From an uncultured Planctomycetia bacterium (GTDB lineage: Bacteria > Omnitrophota > Gorgyraeia > Taenaricolales > CAZCCH01), in the NCBI GenBank assembly GCA_964497315.1, contig CAZCCH010000001.1, positions 56,106 to 120,105 on the forward strand: a stretch of 64,000 nucleotides of DNA, read 5' to 3'. The stretch's first letter is position 1, and each line of letters starts with the position of its first letter. The position numbers were made by a program, and so were the translations under genes. The notes under the pieces were generated by a model, which saw only the letters and a program-made list of their open reading frames with translations, did no database searches and was not told the DNA's origin. This document shows, piece after piece, positions 37,208 to 59,881 of this stretch.

Positions 37208-37250
37208 AAAAAGACAGGTTCTATTGTAGAAGAACCTGTCCATATAATAA

Positions 37251-37765
37251 TGGTGCCGGGACCCAGAATCGAACTGATTGAGATAGCAAAATCTTCTTTG
37301 CTTCTCCCGAACCGTGCGTGCGGATTTCCCGCACACGGCTCTCTCTATGAGTCTGCACTCATAGACCAGCACCCCTTCGTTTGCTAGCGGTTAAACTAGC
37401 TTTAAAACACTACTATGGGTGCATCTGAGACCCTGCTTAATAGCAGGGGTTCACCCGGTCAGTTAATCAACTTTTCCTTGCATCCCAACCCTAACCACAC
37501 CCAGTATTAAGTTTGTGTTTTTGACTTCCCTGTTGTGCCGCTAGGTCGTCAATACTGGGAGCCACCGTGGGTTCGCTTTCGCTTTGGGCTGCAATTTGCT
37601 ATTAGGACCCTTTCTGAAACCTGTCTCCAAATTTCAGTGTCCGTTTGCTACTATGGTAAAACACTAACCATAGGCCCGATTCTAACGGACTAGCTAATTA
37701 ACCTGCAGGTCGCAAGGCACGCAGGGCTTTTCAGGCCCTCGCTCTACCAACTGAGCTATCCCGGC
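37251..37765 (-). tRNA. tRNA-Phe (anticodon GAA), split gene. Exon 1 is 37716..37765 (50 nt) and exon 2 is 37251..37276 (26 nt including CCA), separated by a 439-nt intron in the T-stem between tRNA positions 50 and 51
   Basis: Exon 1 reverse complement: GCCGGGATAGCTCAGTTGGTAGAGCGAGGGCCTGAAAAGCCCTGCGTGCC (acceptor, D-arm, anticodon arm with loop CTGAAAA, variable GCGTG, CC). Exon 2: CAGTTCGATTCTGGGTCCCGGCACCA. Joined, they give a canonical 76-nt tRNA-Phe with a perfect CCCAG/CTGGG T-stem and a GCCGGGA/TCCCGGC acceptor stem, closely matching E. coli tRNA-Phe. Confidence 0.8.
37277..37715 (-). other. ORF-less group II-like intron (439 nt) interrupting the tRNA-Phe T-stem. Domain V is at ~37305..37340
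   Basis: The RNA-sense sequence GAGCCGUGUGCGGGAAAUCCGCACGCACGGUUCGGG matches the group II domain V consensus. It has the AGC triad pairing with GUU, a GAAA-type loop and the conserved 2-nt bulge in the 3' strand. A short D6-like hairpin (AGCAAA...UUUGCU) follows, and the intron ends ...CUCAAU (AY). A possible EBS1 GGCAC (plus strand 37537..37541) could pair with the exon 1 end GUGCC. The intron begins UUGCG rather than the canonical GUGYG. Confidence 0.6.
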
Positions 37766-37828
37766 ACCTTGTATGCGTCACTATTGTATCAAATCATGTA
37801 TATATCTTCAAGAAAAATCAAAAATTGC

Positions 37829-40670: not shown

Positions 40671-43600
40671 TTAGACAAAGGAATCAACTATTTTTTGATG
40701 GGAATGTTCAAGGAGATCCAATAGTTCTTCGGATGGTTTAATGACTGGGTGAAAGAGAAAGCGCCGCAAGAGGGACTTTGCCACCTCAGGAGGAAAGCTA
40801 GATATGTTTAATAGGTTTATAACATCGGCTGTTTCTACTTTTATATCAAGCGCTTGAAACTGTGCAACTATTCCTGCAAGGGGCACTGCCGCATCACCGT
40901 CTTTATGCCTAATAAGTGCTTCTGCCAAAATACAATATTCTCCAACAGGTAAATATTGCAAACTATCTGTATCCGGACTTAAACTTATAGGAAGTGGAAT
41001 TGCGCCACTTTCTAAGAGTCTTTCATCAATTGTTCCTACATTAAAACCATTAACGCCTGTTATAACAACGGTTCTGTCTGTAATTTTATTAAGATTAAAA
41101 GGCTCTATTCTAAATCCATTAATTTTAAACCATGTAGTTATCTCATCAATCTTTTCTTTAAGCTTTAGGTGTTTGTAAAACCTGAGACCTTTTTGGTCAA
41201 TCATAACACTTGCCCCTAACTGAATGCGTTCTTTTGTTTCAAGGGGTTCTGGAATCTTACTATAAAAACCATCAAGGGTTTTAGTGGTGAATCTGTCTGT
41301 TTGAGATATACGCATAATTTCTTTGCCATCCGGTAAGCTAATAAGCACATGTTCTCTTTTATCATCTTCTGTAAATCTGCTCGCACTAGGTGACAAAGAT
41401 AAAAACCCATCATCATCTCTTTGCTCCAACACCTCTGAAAGGACCCTCCATTGAGCTGAGCTTTCAAATATTGGTTTTGTGGAATCATGACCTGCTACAT
41501 AAGTAATTTCTACATGTTGGGCTGGTATCTCACCGAGCATTTCAAGCTCATCTATCAAATCGCCATCTTTTAATATAACCTTTCCTTTTCTAGCTAATAT
41601 TGCTAAATCTGAAATTTTTATTCTATATCCTGCAGGTGTTGTAAATAATTGTTCAGGTACCTCAGCTGTACCTAAAGCCTTTAGCCTCCGTCTAAAACTA
41701 TGACGCGTATCTTCATCTTGCAGGGCCTTCCTCGCATAACTTGTCCACATAGGTGCTATAGAAAAACTCCTTCCTCTCCTGCCAGTTTTGGGATAACCAT
41801 AGTTAAAATTATTATCTTTGTTTATAGATATTTCTTGAGCAAGGACAAAGATTGAGCCGTGGTAAACATATCCATCGCCCCTGGTCATTAAATCCCATAG
41901 CTTGCCTATAATTGCCCAATCATCAGCCTTTATAAGTGCTGACTCGGGTATATCCAAGTGTTCAATAAGGCAATTTTTAAACTCTTTCTGTCTATCTAGA
42001 AAACTAATGCGCAAATCTTTGTTTTTTGGGTTAAAAACAAGACCACTGGCTTCTTTGGATAAATTCAGGCAACTATGAACTTTTCTATATGCCTCTTCAT
42101 AATCGCCTGCGGTTAAATCTTGTTTGATTTTAGCAATAAGGGAAGCTAAGGAAGCAATGATGAGTTCTAATTTTTCTCTTGGGTCTGATTGTGAGGAGTT
42201 TTCAGAAAATCTTGCAGCTATTTCTTCTACAAAACCTTCATTTTCTTTCTTATTATGGTCAATCTTGATTAAATCTATCCTTCTCGTCATGACTCCAGGA
42301 GCTACGGGAATAGATTTTTTTGCATGGTCGTATGGAAATGAATTGATCCTAATAGCATCTAAAACTGCAGGCCCTTCATCAGTTGGCGTACCGGCAAGTT
42401 CTTTGGTAGAATCTTCCGCAAAGCGGGCGGTGTGGCTAAATTCTGGGATATTGTCAAACCTGAGTGACTTCCATTTATGGGGTGCCTCAGCCCATTTATC
42501 ATATGCAGAGCGCAGTAATCCTGCCCTGGTTGCGTATTTACCCTGTGCTGGAACAAATAATACGCGACAGATTACCTTTATGTTTACATCACCGTCTTTT
42601 ACTTTAGTAATCTCAAGAAGATCTCCGCTTTCAGGTATGCCTACCGGCATAACCATCTTGCCACCAGGGACAAGCTGGTCCACTAACTCTTTAGGTACGC
42701 TCTTAAACATGGCAGCGCATAATATCTTATTAAAGCGCCTACCGGGAAGGCCAAGTGCGCCATCTCCTGCACGGAAAGTAACATTCTTATAGCCACCGGT
42801 AACTGTGACTGCCTCTATTGCTCGCGGCAGAAGCACATCTCTTGATTCTATCGTATGCACATGGCCTCTCGAGGCAAGCTCTGCAAGAAGCGCTGTTACA
42901 TAACCGCTACCAGTACCAACCTCAAGGATTGCGTCTGTGGGTTGAATTCCTAAATGTTGTAACATCGAAGTTGTAAGTGCTGGGTCGGAATTAGTCTGGC
43001 CTGCGCCTATATCGATAATCACCGGATCGTAACATTCCTCCCGCACAGATACAGGAACAAACCAATGGCGTTTAACCTGTCTAAATGCAGCAAGGATACT
43101 ATCGTCTATGCCGCCTGTAACACCATAGGTCTGTTGAGCCTCCAGCTGTAACTTCGCAGAGAATGGATCGAATATAGGCGGTTCGACTTCCTGTCTCTTG
43201 GTACCAAAATTCTCCAATGGTTCAACACCAATTACCCCTGAGGGGTTCCCTTCGACCAGCAAAAGGTCGTATAAAGTATTGGCATGGGTAGTAACGTATT
43301 CACGTAGATCTGCTGTAGTCAAGGCCTCCTCATCGTGCACCCAGCAGAATTGATCACTTTCATAAGCGTCGATTTTACTTAGTATGCGGCCGATGTGTTC
43401 AGGATGCCCTTCCGCAAACCGGCCGGTGGATTTGGGAAGGCGTGTCTGGTCTATCAGCGAGGCTACTGTAACGGTTTTTGTGAGTCTTCGGGGCGGGGGT
43501 TTTCTTTCTGGACTACGCCTGTCTCTTTGTCTTTTCTGTCTTCTCTGTTTCTTTGGTCTTTTCTTTTTCTCCTGTTTTATTCTGTCCCGCATCTGGTTCA

Positions 43601-44588
43601 TCCAATGCGTGTGTTTTTTTATTGACTCTTTACTGACTTCTGGATTTGTTACATAAAGACCATTTTTGTCAAAATAGCGCATAATCTCATCTAGTAGCTC
43701 TGGACTAATTTCCCCATTCCTTCTGAACTGTTCAAAATCTCTCTTAAGCTTTTCAAGTCTTTCTTGGAATTTTCTAAGTTTTTCGTTAAAGATCTTCGTT
43801 TCCATCCTCTCTACAAGTATGCTTTCCTTTATTGCTTTTTGTCTTGCTGTATTAGCAGATATTTCTGAAGCTGCCTTGAAGCTAAGGTGAACAACAACTG
43901 TTACCAGGATGCCAACAACAAAAATAGCAAGTACAGGCCCTAGCCTAACCCTGCCTTCAACCTCCGTACCTTCAGCAAAGCGGTTGGATTTGGATGATTT
44001 GCTGTCTTTAGCTCGTCCAACTCTTGTTTTAGGATCTTGAAAATACCTGCGTATAGCTACTACTTGAGGCCACGTAAATCTTTTTGCACCTCGCGATCCT
44101 CTAATTGCAGCATCTGATATATCATCGCGCCCTATTGCCCTTCTGATGTCATCGGGCACAACATCTCCTCCTATCATATCTGCTATTTCTTGCGTGGAAT
44201 ATAACTTTTGCTTTTTGGCGGGTGACGTCTTCTTCCAAACAAATACATTTCTTGTACCATCGAAACAGTCAAGCTCAAAACCAAACTTGCGCAAATGGGC
44301 ACGCACTACATCAGCATCAAGCCCAAGTGCAGGGCTTTCTGGATGGAAATCAAAAGTTGAAGAAACGGATAAAAGCGCATCTAATTTTTGCTCTTTTTCC
44401 TTTGTTGCGCTCTCGGCAAAAGAAGAAATCACATCAGCCAAAGTTCTGGTATTTCTTGTTTTGGGTGCACGGTAGGTATGCTTGGAGAGGCGGGATGAGG
44501 CGGCCAGGGCATAATCCGACCCTATGACCGAAATTGTGAAGGTCAAAAGCAGAGTTATTGCTATTGTCTTAATAAGGGAAGATTTCAT
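40671..44588 (-). CDS. Giant (1305 aa) signal-peptide + single-TM protein containing a protein-L-isoaspartate (D-aspartate) O-methyltransferase (PIMT/PCMT) domain, a highly basic linker and a ~600-aa C-terminal region of unknown family
   Basis: Signal peptide MKSSLIKTIAITLLLTFTISVIGSDYALA. TM helix LGPVLAIFVVGILVTVVVHLSF (~nt 43890..43950). Coiled-coil region, then the basic tract KKKRPKKQRRQKRQRDRRSPERKPPPRR (~43495..43590). PIMT core with AdoMet motif I ILEVGTGSGYVTALLAEL (~42880..42935) and downstream motifs (KILCAA, GGKMVMPVG). The C-terminal ~620 aa show no recognisable motif. Confidence 0.6.
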   Translation of the reverse strand: MKSSLIKTIAITLLLTFTISVIGSDYALAASSRLSKHTYRAPKTRNTRTLADVISSFAESATKEKEQKLDALLSVSSTFDFHPESPALGLDADVVRAHLRKFGFELDCFDGTRNVFVWKKTSPAKKQKLYSTQEIADMIGGDVVPDDIRRAIGRDDISDAAIRGSRGAKRFTWPQVVAIRRYFQDPKTRVGRAKDSKSSKSNRFAEGTEVEGRVRLGPVLAIFVVGILVTVVVHLSFKAASEISANTARQKAIKESILVERMETKIFNEKLRKFQERLEKLKRDFEQFRRNGEISPELLDEIMRYFDKNGLYVTNPEVSKESIKKHTHWMNQMRDRIKQEKKKRPKKQRRQKRQRDRRSPERKPPPRRLTKTVTVASLIDQTRLPKSTGRFAEGHPEHIGRILSKIDAYESDQFCWVHDEEALTTADLREYVTTHANTLYDLLLVEGNPSGVIGVEPLENFGTKRQEVEPPIFDPFSAKLQLEAQQTYGVTGGIDDSILAAFRQVKRHWFVPVSVREECYDPVIIDIGAGQTNSDPALTTSMLQHLGIQPTDAILEVGTGSGYVTALLAELASRGHVHTIESRDVLLPRAIEAVTVTGGYKNVTFRAGDGALGLPGRRFNKILCAAMFKSVPKELVDQLVPGGKMVMPVGIPESGDLLEITKVKDGDVNIKVICRVLFVPAQGKYATRAGLLRSAYDKWAEAPHKWKSLRFDNIPEFSHTARFAEDSTKELAGTPTDEGPAVLDAIRINSFPYDHAKKSIPVAPGVMTRRIDLIKIDHNKKENEGFVEEIAARFSENSSQSDPREKLELIIASLASLIAKIKQDLTAGDYEEAYRKVHSCLNLSKEASGLVFNPKNKDLRISFLDRQKEFKNCLIEHLDIPESALIKADDWAIIGKLWDLMTRGDGYVYHGSIFVLAQEISINKDNNFNYGYPKTGRRGRSFSIAPMWTSYARKALQDEDTRHSFRRRLKALGTAEVPEQLFTTPAGYRIKISDLAILARKGKVILKDGDLIDELEMLGEIPAQHVEITYVAGHDSTKPIFESSAQWRVLSEVLEQRDDDGFLSLSPSASRFTEDDKREHVLISLPDGKEIMRISQTDRFTTKTLDGFYSKIPEPLETKERIQLGASVMIDQKGLRFYKHLKLKEKIDEITTWFKINGFRIEPFNLNKITDRTVVITGVNGFNVGTIDERLLESGAIPLPISLSPDTDSLQYLPVGEYCILAEALIRHKDGDAAVPLAGIVAQFQALDIKVETADVINLLNISSFPPEVAKSLLRRFLFHPVIKPSEELLDLLEHSHQKIVDSFV

Positions 44589-59708: not shown

Positions 59709-59815
59709 AAAAAAAATAACCCACCTACTCTAAAAGTAGCTGGGTTGCTATAACTTCCTATTTTAAAAGTTCTTTTGTAGATCATTTTGGCTCCTTTGCC
59801 AACCTCTCTGGGTTG
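59709..59815 (-). promoter_or_regulatory. PyrR-binding attenuator: anti-antiterminator loop (59788..59811) and an intrinsic terminator hairpin (59718..59746) plus U-tract (59709..59717) immediately upstream of pyrR
   Basis: Minus-sense CCCAGAGAGGUUGGCAAAGGAGCC matches the PyrR binding-loop consensus (UCCAGAGAGGCUGGCAAGG). About 40 nt downstream there is a hairpin AACCCAGCUACUUUUAGAGUAGGUGGGUU followed by AUUUUUUUU. Confidence 0.65.
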
Positions 59816-59881
59816 ACTTAAAAGGTGTTTAAGTTCTTGTAATTCTAGCATTTTAGGCTTGATTTGTCAAGGAAAATATTG

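What the first reader, a model, noticed from the sequence alone, without database searches (positions are those of the whole stretch)
37251..37765. tRNA-Phe gene split in its T-stem by a 439-nt ORF-less group II-like intron
The two halves of a canonical tRNA-Phe(GAA) lie 439 nt apart. Joined at positions 50/51 they restore a perfect CCCAG/CUGGG T-stem and a 7-bp acceptor stem. The intervening RNA carries an unmistakable group II domain V (GAGCCGUGUGCGGGAAAUCCGCACGCACGGUUCGGG, with the AGC triad and a 2-nt bulge), then a short D6-like hairpin, and ends in AU. Bacterial tRNA introns described so far are almost all group I insertions in the anticodon loop. A ~440-nt ORF-less group II-type ribozyme inserted in the T-arm would be a very unusual architecture. 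It is a candidate minimal self-splicing, or host-factor-dependent, intron. If this is the only tRNA-Phe gene in the genome, splicing would be essential. The intron start is UUGCG rather than GUGYG. This makes the exact 5' boundary uncertain and is a noteworthy deviation.
Basis: partly seen in the sequence, partly recalled or inferred. Interest (0 to 1): 0.85.

Follow-up and report, generated by a model that had tools for sequence, protein, structure and literature searches.

The report
Group II intron splitting bacterial tRNA-Phe
In an uncultured Omnitrophota bacterium, the tRNA-Phe gene is interrupted in its T-stem by a complete, protein-less 439-nt group II ribozyme; a diverged sister lineage keeps the same intron at the same site, so it is very probably spliced, and no bacterial tRNA intron of this kind has been described at this position.

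Summary
On the minus strand, tRNA-Phe(GAA) exon 1 (37765-37716) and exon 2 (37276-37251, CCA encoded) are separated by a 439-nt intron (37715-37277). ARAGORN calls the joined exons a 76-nt tRNA-Phe.

The intron has all six group II domains and no ORF:
- D5-D6 match Rfam RF00029 at 58 bits.
- D1 matches RF02001 at 40 bits, and D2-D3 match RF01998 weakly. These two models are the ones that hit genuine group IIC introns.
- D5, however, carries the AGC triad rather than the IIC CGC.
- EBS1 (GGCAC) pairs with the last five exon-1 bases (GUGCC), which fixes the 50/51 junction and the unusual UUGCG start.

A sister Omnitrophota lineage (L196/L197, about 75% protein identity) has the homologous 434-nt intron at the same site. 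It is 85% identical, also starts UUGCG, and shows 12 compensatory pair changes plus a covarying gamma-gamma' pair. A more distant syntenic relative (L078/L193) has an intronless tRNA-Phe.

The gene has its own promoter and terminator. No reverse transcriptase lies within the 64 kb window.

Verdict: a real, conserved and very probably spliced ORF-less IIC-like intron, and a new variant of a barely documented kind. Splicing itself, and whether this is the only tRNA-Phe gene, remain untested.

The parts
37783..37811 (-). sigma-70-like promoter: TTGAAG, 17-nt spacer, TG-extended TACAAT, ending 18 nt upstream of tRNA position 1
   Evidence: The intronless orthologue in L078 has TTGACA-17-TACAAT at the same place (read).
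37716..37765 (-). tRNA-Phe(GAA) exon 1: positions 1-50, comprising the acceptor 5' strand, D-arm, anticodon arm, variable loop and the first two T-stem bases
37716..37720 (-). IBS1 (GUGCC), the last 5 nt of exon 1
   Evidence: Complementary to EBS1. Conserved in lineage B.
37277..37715 (-). ORF-less group II intron, 439 nt, from 5' UUGCG to AAU 3'
   Evidence: The homologue lies at L196 8199-8632.
37453..37710 (-). Domain 1 (intron nt 6-263), with an IIC-type D1d
   Evidence: RF02001 scores 40.3 bits at 37597-37473. Helices come from the MFE fold.
37535..37539 (-). EBS1 (GGCAC, intron nt 177-181), in the terminal loop of D1d
   Evidence: This is the loop position of the RF02001 consensus. It pairs with IBS1 and is conserved in L196.
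37427..37452 (-). Domain 2 (intron nt 264-289), a short hairpin
37423..37426 (-). J2/3 (AGAU). A290 is the proposed gamma nucleotide that pairs with the last intron base.
   Evidence: A290/U439 in the window becomes G/C in L196.
37369..37422 (-). Domain 3 (intron nt 294-347), with the CCCAUAGUA...CGAAGGGG motif
   Evidence: RF01998 scores 25.2 bits. Compensatory changes are seen in L196.
37344..37365 (-). Domain 4, reduced to a 9-bp hairpin with no ORF
   Evidence: The hairpin is kept in L196 through a compensatory change.
37309..37341 (-). Domain 5, 33 nt: AGC triad, 2-nt AC bulge, 4-bp distal stem with a GAAAU loop
   Evidence: RF00029 scores 58.3 bits. All 33 nt are identical in L196.
37280..37306 (-). 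Domain 6, with the bulged branch-point candidate A432 at window 37284, the 8th base from the 3' end
37251..37276 (-). tRNA-Phe exon 2: positions 51-76, comprising the rest of the T-arm, the acceptor 3' strand, A73 and CCA
37212..37241 (-). Intrinsic terminator: 11-bp stem followed by a T-run, starting 9 nt after the CCA

Best explanation
This is a genuine, structurally complete, ORF-less group II intron of 439 nt. It sits between nucleotides 50 and 51 (the 5' strand of the T-stem) of the syntenic tRNA-Phe(GAA) gene of an uncultured Candidatus Omnitrophota bacterium.

How it most likely works:
1. The gene is transcribed on its own, from a sigma-70-like promoter to an intrinsic terminator (shown as consensus matches only).
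2. In the precursor, the acceptor stem and the anticodon arm can already form. The intron folds into domains D1-D6 (predicted).
3. EBS1 (GGCAC, in the D1d terminal loop) pairs with IBS1 (GUGCC, tRNA positions 46-50). This sets the 5' splice site before UUGCG.
4. The first step uses either the bulged A432 of D6 (branching) or water (hydrolysis, the usual in vitro route for IIC ribozymes). Which one is inferred, not known.
5. Exon ligation rebuilds the CCCAG/CUGGG T-stem. Only then can the T-arm, and so a functional tRNA, exist.

The ribozyme is closest to group IIC. It is small, has no EBS2 and has a short EBS1-IBS1 pairing, and its D1 and D3 match the covariance models that hit bona fide IIC introns. 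Its catalytic core is IIA/IIB-like, with an AGC triad and an AGA-type J2/3.

The insertion site fits IIC target logic: a hairpin (here the anticodon stem-loop), a short spacer (GC), and then a short IBS1. This is an inference.

The intron entered before two Omnitrophota lineages split and has been kept without an ORF ever since, so it is almost certainly spliced efficiently. Whether splicing is protein-independent or needs a trans-acting factor is open.
For: Anatomy:
- Joined exons give tRNA-Phe.
- RF00029 scores 58.3 bits, RF02001 40.3 bits and RF01998 25.2 bits.
- The six-domain MFE fold has z = -5.6, and the fold of the full precursor keeps the acceptor and anticodon stems.

Class:
- The pair RF02001 + RF01998 hits the terminator-associated IIC intron of phage Nanz197 at 135 and 63 bits (PMC12350094).
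- The O. iheyensis IIC crystal-structure RNA (PDB 4FAW) is assigned to RF02001 (PMC3965019).
- Published IIC features are small size, no EBS2, a 3-4 bp EBS1-IBS1 pairing, a 5' exon hairpin in place of IBS2, and splice sites 3-11 nt after the hairpin (PMC1702495).

Conservation:
- Lineage B (L196/L197; ThrRS 77%, DUF3786 71%, TrkH 75% amino-acid identity) has the homologous 434-nt intron at the same 50/51 site.
- It is 84.7% identical, with 78 substitutions.
- Of 164 predicted pairs, 130 are unchanged, 13 keep pairing through a one-sided change, 12 are compensatory on both sides, 7 are broken and 2 are gapped.
- Among pairs that changed, 25 are kept and 7 broken. Controls with shifted partners give 9-19 kept and 23-32 broken.
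- D5 is identical, and EBS1, IBS1 and UUGCG are conserved.
- The proposed tertiary pair gamma-gamma' changes from A-U to G-C.
- The tRNA anticodon stem changes from G28-C42 to A28-U42.
- In lineage B, RF02001 matches over the full model at 50 bits.

Polarity: outgroup lineage C (L078/L193) has an intronless tRNA-Phe at the syntenic spot.

Promoter and terminator.

Reality of the sequence: the identical sequence occurs in 9 contigs from independent assemblies, plus a tenth truncated one.
Against: - No splicing data exist: there are no junction reads and no in vitro assay.
- Position 1 is U rather than the near-invariant G, which normally contacts the penultimate base in the second step (Chanfreau and Jacquier, as cited in PMC4238363).
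- The D5 loop is GAAAU on a 4-bp stem rather than a GNRA tetraloop on 5 bp, so the zeta-zeta' docking may be unusual.
- Two IIC hallmarks are not met: the CGC triad and the 11-nt epsilon' bulge containing AGGAA.
- RF01998 scores below its gathering score.
- Only two diverged sequences exist, so covariation rests on one comparison and on an MFE structure derived from one of the two.
- The rest of the genome was not available. A second tRNA-Phe gene or a trans-acting maturase cannot be excluded.
Confidence: 0.8

Rival explanations
1. Splicing depends on a trans-acting protein. This could be a class C-type intron-encoded reverse transcriptase/maturase from a related intron elsewhere in the genome, or a host factor. 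On this view the intron is a non-autonomous derivative rather than a self-sufficient ribozyme.
For: [quoted passage not shown] The one noted exception is C.te.I1 (PMC4424553). In cells, IIC ribozymes work as ribonucleoprotein particles in which the maturase buttresses the short EBS1-IBS1 helix (PMC10190682). The non-consensus U1 and the unusual D5 loop may call for help.
Against: No reverse transcriptase was found in the 64-kb window by tblastn with four intron-encoded proteins (best E = 0.17). None is called on the 20.7-kb L196 locus. D4, the usual maturase-binding arm, is reduced to a 22-nt hairpin whose sequence differs between the two lineages.
Confidence: 0.4
2. The gene is a disrupted tRNA-Phe pseudogene. 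A retroelement copy landed in one of two tRNA-Phe genes, is no longer spliced, and is simply decaying. A second intact tRNA-Phe supplies the cell.
For: The intron starts with U instead of G, the D5 loop is atypical, and there is no intron-encoded protein. Group II introns rarely sit in essential genes (PMC13011429). The rest of the genome was not seen.
Against: Two lineages with about 25% protein divergence keep the exons as a perfect cloverleaf, with a compensatory change in the anticodon stem. D5 is 100% identical. Twelve compensatory and 13 pair-preserving changes occur in intron helices, and gamma-gamma' covaries. The promoter and terminator are intact. The locus is the syntenic counterpart of the tRNA-Phe gene of the outgroup. 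No other tRNA-Phe occurs in 64 kb.
Confidence: 0.1
3. It is an assembly or chimera artefact that joins a tRNA fragment to an unrelated intron.
For: None, beyond the metagenomic origin of the sequence.
Against: The identical 515 nt occur in 9 contigs from separate JGI and ENA assemblies, plus a tenth truncated one. A diverged homologue with the same architecture occurs in two further contigs.
Confidence: 0.01

Closest known systems
Group II introns in bacterial tRNA genes (mSystems 2026, PMC13011429)
   Same: A group II intron interrupts a bacterial tRNA gene. Most of the six reported cases also lack an intron-encoded protein: one was found in only one of the six.
   Different: The six lie in the anticodon loop (five) or the D-loop (one). 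They come from one cyanobacterium and one Phytoplasma genome and were found with ARAGORN, which cannot see a T-stem intron. This intron is at 50/51 in the T-stem, in Omnitrophota, and is IIC-like. No conservation across lineages is described in the passages of that paper read here.
Group IIC (class C) introns, e.g. O. iheyensis O.i.I1, B. halodurans B.h.I1, phage Nanz197
   Same: The ribozyme is compact (412 nt for O.i.; 439 nt here). The D1 and D2-D3 covariance models RF02001 and RF01998 match. There is no EBS2 and the EBS1-IBS1 pairing is short. A hairpin lies a few nucleotides upstream of the splice site.
   Different: IIC introns have a CGC triad, a D5 distal stem 2 bp shorter, and an 11-nt AGGAA bulge. 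All known ones are retroelements carrying a protein, and they sit after terminators or attC sites outside genes (PMC1702495). This one has an AGC triad, a 5-6 nt bulge, no ORF, and lies inside a tRNA gene.
C.te.I1 of Clostridium tetani
   Same: It is a bacterial ORF-less group II intron with no cognate protein nearby and with a non-standard 5' splice-site arrangement (PMC4024640; PMC4424553).
   Different: C.te.I1 is IIB-like, lies between protein-coding exons, splices alternatively, and has its 5' splice site shifted 8 nt upstream of GUGYG.
Organellar group II introns in tRNA genes (plastid trnK, trnV, trnI, trnA, trnG-UCC)
   Same: Group II introns, many ORF-less, are stably inherited in tRNA genes and depend on splicing for tRNA maturation (my own knowledge).
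   Different: They are organellar, IIA/IIB, much larger and dependent on host factors. They lie in the anticodon loop or stem, or in the D-stem. To my knowledge none is in the T-stem.
Bacterial group I tRNA introns (tRNA-Leu, tRNA-fMet, tRNA-Arg and others)
   Same: A self-splicing ribozyme sits in a bacterial tRNA gene and is inherited vertically.
   Different: It is a different ribozyme class and always lies in the anticodon loop (PMC13011429). No group I model hit the region here.
ORF-less group II intron family in tRNA(CAU) of Ktedonobacteria/Chloroflexia
   Same: The intron is ORF-less and compact (about 505-565 nt), and it resides in a tRNA gene. It is conserved with abundant covariation. 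Some members also start with UUGCG.
   Different: It is inserted at 38/39, uses a 7-bp EBS1 against the anticodon loop, and gives no RF02001 hit. Its sequence is unrelated apart from D3-D5.

Membership tests
Group II intron (general) | Domain 5 of about 34 nt with a catalytic triad and a 2-nt bulge | tested here: met
   RF00029 scores 58.3 bits against a gathering score of 40. AGC triad and AC bulge are present. D5 is 33 nt.
Group II intron (general) | Domain 6 with a bulged A 7-8 nt from the 3' splice site, and an AY 3' end | tested here: met
   A432 is bulged and is the 8th base from the 3' end. The intron ends AU in the window and AC in L196.
Group II intron (general) | Six domains radiating from a central wheel | tested here: met
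   The MFE fold gives D1-D6 with z = -5.6. RF02001 and RF01998 match. Helices are kept by 25 pair-preserving changes in the homologue.
Group II intron (general) | 5' consensus GUGYG | tested here: not met
   The start is UUGCG in both lineages, so only position 1 deviates. UUGCG also occurs in 4 of 24 members of the covariation-supported Ktedonobacteria tRNA intron family.
Group II intron (general) | EBS1-IBS1 pairing that defines the 5' splice site | tested here: met
   GGCAC in the D1d terminal loop pairs with GUGCC at the end of exon 1. Both are conserved in L196.
Group II intron (general) | Gamma-gamma' pair between J2/3 and the last intron nucleotide | tested here: met
   A290-U439 in the window corresponds to G-C in L196. 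This rests on a single comparison.
Group II intron (general) | Splicing activity | not testable with these tools
   This needs RT-PCR or RNA-seq, or an in vitro assay.
Group IIC (class C) | IIC-type D1 and D2-D3 structure | tested here: met
   RF02001 scores 40.3 bits in the window and 50.0 bits over the full model in L196 (gathering 32). RF01998 scores 25.2 and 28.6 bits, below its gathering score of 35. The same pair of models hits the IIC intron of phage Nanz197.
Group IIC (class C) | CGC triad and a D5 distal stem 2 bp shorter | tested here: not met
   The triad is AGC. The distal stem is 4 bp, against 5 bp in IIA/IIB (counted from the RF00029 consensus); Toor 2006 says the IIC stem is 2 bp shorter, i.e. 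3 bp.
Group IIC (class C) | 11-nt epsilon' bulge with a conserved AGGAA | tested here: not met
   The homologous 3' bulge is only GAAAGG (intron nt 102-107). Model positions 1-37 are unmatched in the window.
Group IIC (class C) | No EBS2-IBS2, a short EBS1-IBS1 pairing, and a hairpin in the 5' exon 3-11 nt before the splice site | tested here: met
   I found no EBS2 candidate by inspection. EBS1-IBS1 is 4-5 bp. The anticodon stem-loop ends 7 nt before the splice site. That the hairpin plays a role is an inference.
Group IIC (class C) | Encodes a class C reverse transcriptase and sits after a terminator or attC site, outside genes | tested here: not met
   There is no ORF, and the intron lies inside a tRNA gene.
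tRNA-Phe | Cloverleaf with a GAA anticodon, A73 and a canonical T-loop after exon joining | tested here: met
   ARAGORN calls a 76-nt tRNA-Phe(GAA). The T-loop is UUCGAUU. The anticodon stem covaries with lineage B. One oddity: positions 15 and 48 are G and G.
Group I tRNA intron | Group I core, inserted in the anticodon loop | tested here: not met
   No group I family matched at E up to 10, and the insertion is in the T-stem.

The most novel reading that the evidence does not exclude
The only tRNA-Phe gene of these Omnitrophota depends on a domesticated, protein-independent, minimal ribozyme of 434-439 nt. This ribozyme is a hybrid, with an IIC-type scaffold and an IIA/IIB-type catalytic core, and it has U at position 1. 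It has been inherited vertically in the T-stem since before two lineages split. That would make an essential step of translation dependent on group II self-splicing in a free-living bacterium. It would also supply one of the smallest natural, complete group II ribozymes for structural and engineering work.
Probability: 0.35. Interest if true: 0.85.

Novelty: new variant of a known kind. Interest (0 to 1): 0.72.

Why it matters
- Group II introns are thought to avoid essential bacterial genes, and IIC introns are thought to live only behind terminators as retroelements. Here an IIC-like ribozyme without any protein gene sits inside a tRNA and has been kept through speciation. That behaviour resembles an organellar intron rather than a selfish retroelement.
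- Standard tRNA finders miss the gene, so such genomes would be scored as lacking tRNA-Phe.
- The intron is a natural experiment on two supposedly strict features: G1, and the GNRA loop of D5.
- It is a compact candidate for a self-splicing or easily reconstituted ribozyme.
- The scans run for this finding also show that group II introns in bacterial tRNA genes are far more common than the six cases so far published.

Tried and rejected
- **BLAST against plasmids.** blastn of the 515 nt against PLSDB plasmids gave no match.
- **Pattern scans.** I scanned for D5 followed by a T-loop.
  - Viral contigs gave one chance hit in coding DNA.
  - GTDB species genomes gave 66 loci, none from this organism and none in a T-stem.
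  - JGI metagenome contigs gave 107 loci, none homologous.
  - A second viral scan for ORF-less D3-D5 spacing gave three chance hits.
- **nhmmer.** Searches with the intron alone and with the two-lineage profile against all held loci found only D5-level similarity elsewhere.
- **EBS2.** No convincing partner exists for the exon bases upstream of IBS1. The 14-nt internal loop at intron nt 196-209 has no complement in exon 1.
- **Alternative splice junctions.** Shifts of plus or minus 1 nt, or an intron starting at the exonic GUGCC, either break the tRNA or lose the EBS1 pairing, so I rejected them.
- **Extended 5' exon hairpin.** An extension of G24-U47 needs a bulge and overlaps IBS1, so I rejected it.
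- **Discard.** That alignment used wrong coordinates for minus-strand loci. One search replaces it.
- **More relatives through synteny.** ThrRS homologues at 69-70% identity and DUF3786 homologues at 66-67% identity sit in other contexts, with no tRNA-Phe nearby.
- **Selection from population variation.** This was not possible, because all lineage A contigs are at least 99.4% identical.
Full report
**Observation.** All coordinates refer to the minus strand.
- The sequence 37765-37716 reads GCCGGGAUAGCUCAGUUGGUAGAGCGAGGGCCUGAAAAGCCCUGCGUGCC.
- The sequence 37276-37251 reads CAGUUCGAUUCUGGGUCCCGGCACCA.
- ARAGORN finds no tRNA in the unspliced region. It calls the concatenated halves a 76-nt tRNA-Phe(GAA) with a 7-bp acceptor stem, a CCCAG/CUGGG T-stem, a UUCGAUU T-loop, A73 and an encoded CCA.
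- The 439 nt in between (37715-37277) carry a group II D5-D6 (RF00029, 58.3 bits, gathering 40).
- They also carry a D1 match (RF02001, 40.3 bits, gathering 32) and a weaker D2-D3 match (RF01998, 25.2 bits, below the gathering score of 35).
- The intron alone folds into six domains: -159.9 kcal/mol, z = -5.6, and no shuffle folds as well.
- In the fold of the whole precursor, the acceptor stem and the anticodon arm form around the same intron fold.
- No ORF fits in the intron, and D4 is a 9-bp hairpin.
- The 515-nt sequence is identical in 9 contigs from independent JGI and ENA metagenome assemblies, and a tenth contig, cut at its end, matches over its 251 nt.

**Splice sites.**
- The loop that holds EBS1 in the RF02001 consensus reads GCGGCACAAC.
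- GGCAC is complementary to the last five exon-1 bases, GUGCC. This places the 5' splice site before UUGCG.
- Moving either junction by one base, or starting the intron at the exonic GUGCC, destroys either the tRNA or this pairing (read from the sequence).
- D6 has a bulged A (intron nt 432, window 37284), the 8th base from the 3' end. The intron ends in AU.
The first base really is U.

**Expression signals.**
- A TTGAAG-17-TACAAT promoter with an extended -10 ends 18 nt before tRNA position 1.
- An 11-bp terminator hairpin followed by a T-run starts 9 nt after the CCA.
- These are consensus matches. The intronless orthologue shows the same layout.

**Organism and relatives.**
- All named ThrRS homologues, at 65-70% identity, are Candidatus Omnitrophica/Omnitrophota.
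- The window corresponds to JGI contig Ga0117906_1000062, 122.7 kb.
- Three related lineages could be compared:

| Lineage | Loci | tRNA-Phe gene |
|---|---|---|
| A | the window | split by the 439-nt intron at 50/51 |
| B | L196, L197 | split by a homologous 434-nt intron at 50/51 |
| C | L078, L193 | intronless, next to the same DUF3786 gene |

- A and B are closer to each other than either is to C:

| Protein | A-B identity | Identity to C (A-C / B-C) |
|---|---|---|
| NYN | 74% | 69% / 67% |
| AsmA-like | 64% | 57% / 54% |
| DUF3786 | 71% | 59% / 59% |
| TrkH | 75% | 71% / 71% |

- In lineage C, tRNA-Phe(GAA) lies at L078 7994-8068.
- In lineage B, the split gene lies at L196 8149-8658, between the same thioesterase gene and the tRNA-Leu/tRNA-Val/ThrRS block. 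The 434-nt intron is at the same 50/51 position.
- The simplest history is one insertion in the common ancestor of A and B. The alternative is a loss in C.

**Comparative evidence for function.** The A and B sequences are 84.7% identical, with 78 substitutions and 7 gapped columns.
- D5 is identical at all 33 positions.
- UUGCG, EBS1 and IBS1 are conserved.
- The 3' end changes from AU to AC, and the first base of J2/3 changes from A to G. This is what the gamma-gamma' tertiary pair predicts.
- Of the 164 base pairs in the MFE structure of the lineage A precursor, 130 are unchanged, 13 keep pairing through a one-sided change, 12 changed on both sides and still pair, 7 are broken and 2 are gapped. 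The compensatory changes lie in D1, D3, D4, D6 and the tRNA anticodon stem.
- Several of the broken pairs are peripheral MFE pairs, for example two that involve exon 2 and the last intron base.
- Among pairs that changed, 25 are kept and 7 broken. When the 3' partner is shifted by 1-3 columns, the result is 9-19 kept and 23-32 broken.
- The structure came from one of the two sequences, which favours it somewhat. Only one comparison exists, so this is good but not overwhelming support.
- The exons stay a perfect cloverleaf in both lineages.
- The lineage B intron also matches RF02001, now over the full model at 50 bits, and RF01998 at 28.6 bits.
- An unspliced relic would not be expected to keep all of this across about 25% protein divergence.

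**Class.**
- RF02001 followed by RF01998 is the signature of the IIC intron of Mycobacterium phage Nanz197 (135 and 63 bits). [quoted passage not shown]
- The O. iheyensis IIC crystal-structure RNA (PDB 4FAW) is assigned to RF02001 (PMC3965019).
- No other D1-D4 model matched, even at E = 10.
- Toor et al. 2006 (PMC1702495) define IIC ribozymes by six features:
  1. small size;
  2. a D5 with CGC and a distal stem 2 bp shorter;
  3. an 11-nt epsilon' bulge with AGGAA;
  4. a 3-4 bp EBS1-IBS1 pairing;
  5. no EBS2;
  6. a 5' exon hairpin where IBS2 would be, with splice sites 3-11 nt after it.
- This intron meets the size, EBS1, no-EBS2 and hairpin criteria. The anticodon stem-loop ends 7 nt before the splice site.
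- It fails the D5 criterion: it has an AGC triad, a 4-bp distal stem and a GAAAU loop.
- It also fails the bulge criterion: the bulge is a 5-6 nt GAAAGG.
- Its J2/3, AGAU, looks IIA/IIB-like (my own knowledge of ai5gamma).
- I therefore call it IIC-like with an IIA/IIB-type core, and not a member of class C.
- That a IIC-type preference for 'hairpin + spacer + short IBS1' explains the landing site in a tRNA is an inference.

**Protein cofactor.**
- tblastn with four intron-encoded reverse transcriptases taken from other loci finds nothing in the 64-kb window (best E = 0.17).
- No such gene is called on L196.
- Reviews state that bacterial ORF-less introns are rare and nearly always accompanied by related protein-encoding copies, with C.te.I1 as the exception (PMC4424553).

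**The U at position 1.**
- G1 is thought to contact the penultimate intron base in the second step. Yet active natural introns deviate at these boundary positions: RmInt1 ends in CC (PMC4238363).
- In the ORF-less tRNA(CAU) intron family found in passing, the 5' pentamer is GUGCG, UUGCG, GAGCG, AUGCG or GCGCG. That family has 24 distinct sequences and 169 consensus pairs. Sixty-two pairs show compensatory changes, and only 1.7% of cells are non-canonical.
- U1 is therefore compatible with a maintained intron. Its conservation in lineages A and B points the same way.

**Literature.**
- A 2026 survey states that no group II intron in a bacterial tRNA gene had been reported before it. [quoted passage not shown] One was in a cyanobacterium and five in one Phytoplasma genome. 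They were found through ARAGORN (PMC13011429).
- Searches for T-stem or T-arm group II introns in bacteria, and for Omnitrophota plus group II intron, returned nothing relevant.
- The kind is therefore just known. The T-stem position, the IIC-like ORF-less ribozyme, the phylum and the demonstrated vertical retention are new.

**Verdict.** This is a real, conserved, ORF-less IIC-like group II intron in the T-stem of tRNA-Phe, and it is very probably spliced. The open questions are direct evidence of splicing, autonomy, and whether this is the only tRNA-Phe gene.

Noticed in passing
L002-L067 (e.g. L002 3611-6374; internal tRNA at L002 4514-4584), and also L091, L099, L121, L124, L138, L144 and others: In about 50 proteobacterial genomes and MAGs (including Rhodocyclales, Massilia/Duganella, Rhodanobacter/Xanthomonadales and Solimonas), a tRNA-Gly(CCC) gene is split in the 3' strand of the anticodon stem, at about position 40/41 (...CUUCCCAAGC|GUGCGAC...). 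The interrupting group II intron is about 2.6-2.7 kb and encodes a reverse transcriptase (RF02012 + RF00029; a protein of about 580 aa with YADD). Inside the intron, between D1-D3 and the protein ORF, sits a second, intact tRNA-Gly(CCC) gene with a different anticodon-stem sequence. In 27 of 27 loci that hold both exons, the joined exons are called tRNA-Gly by ARAGORN. The arrangement looks like an intron that targets tRNA-Gly and carries its own replacement copy. I found no report of it.
   Followed up: partly
L006, L035, L058 (Chloroflexia/Ktedonobacteraceae MAGs) and about 45 soil metagenome loci (L081-L186), e.g. L035 5672-6272: A conserved ORF-less group II intron of about 505-565 nt lies at 38/39 of a tRNA(CAU) gene. 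There are 24 distinct sequences at 68-99.8% identity. The consensus structure has 169 pairs, 62 of them with compensatory changes. The exon 1/exon 2 anticodon stem covaries. EBS1 (UUAUGAG) pairs with the anticodon loop CUCAUAA. The 5' pentamer varies (GUGCG, UUGCG, GAGCG, AUGCG, GCGCG), and 0-7 extra bases separate it from the splice site, which resembles the shifted 5' splice site of C.te.I1.
   Followed up: partly
L056 3629-6047; L087/L116; L184; L084, L093, L096, L115, L131, L137, L151; L143: Further split tRNA genes turned up.
- Poribacteria: tRNA-Arg(UCG), split after position 43 by a protein-encoding intron.
- L087/L116: tRNA-Arg(UCU), split at about 36/37.
- L184: tRNA-Lys(UUU), split at 38/39 by an ORF-less intron with UUGCG and an 18-nt 5' extension.
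- A low-GC group (34-38%): an intron ends just before the T-stem of a tRNA-Gly-like 3' half. These contigs, and L143 (many tRNAs, LSU rRNA with an intron), may be organellar.
Group II introns in tRNA genes appear much commoner than the six published cases.
   Followed up: partly
L078 7994-8068 (also L193 4393-4467): The intronless tRNA-Phe of outgroup lineage C is itself odd. Its D-loop is AGAAGUA, without the GG18-19 pair, and its T-loop is UGCGAUU, with G at position 55. Rfam still scores it at 60.5 bits. Its bases 46-50 do not match the intron's EBS1.
   Followed up: no
L078 11569-12498 and 7270-7965; L193 1-892, 4496-5191 and 18257-18913: Lineage C carries LAGLIDADG-type ORFs. One lies between tRNA-Asp and tRNA-Val, which are only 52 nt apart in the window. 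Another lies after pheT. An unannotated 231-aa ORF replaces the thioesterase next to tRNA-Phe. This suggests mobile-element traffic around tRNA genes in these genomes.
   Followed up: no
window 37716-37765 (tRNA positions 15 and 48): In the spliced tRNA-Phe, the Levitt pair would be G15-G48 rather than the usual G15-C48. Lineage B has the same bases.
   Followed up: no
window 59710-59829 (-): A PyrR-binding attenuator (RF00515, 59.2 bits, gathering 54) occurs in an Omnitrophota genome.
   Followed up: no
window 40671-44588 (-): A 1305-aa ORF has a central protein-L-isoaspartate methyltransferase-like (PCMT) domain and long flanking regions without Pfam matches. It is conserved in the lineage A contigs.
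   Followed up: no
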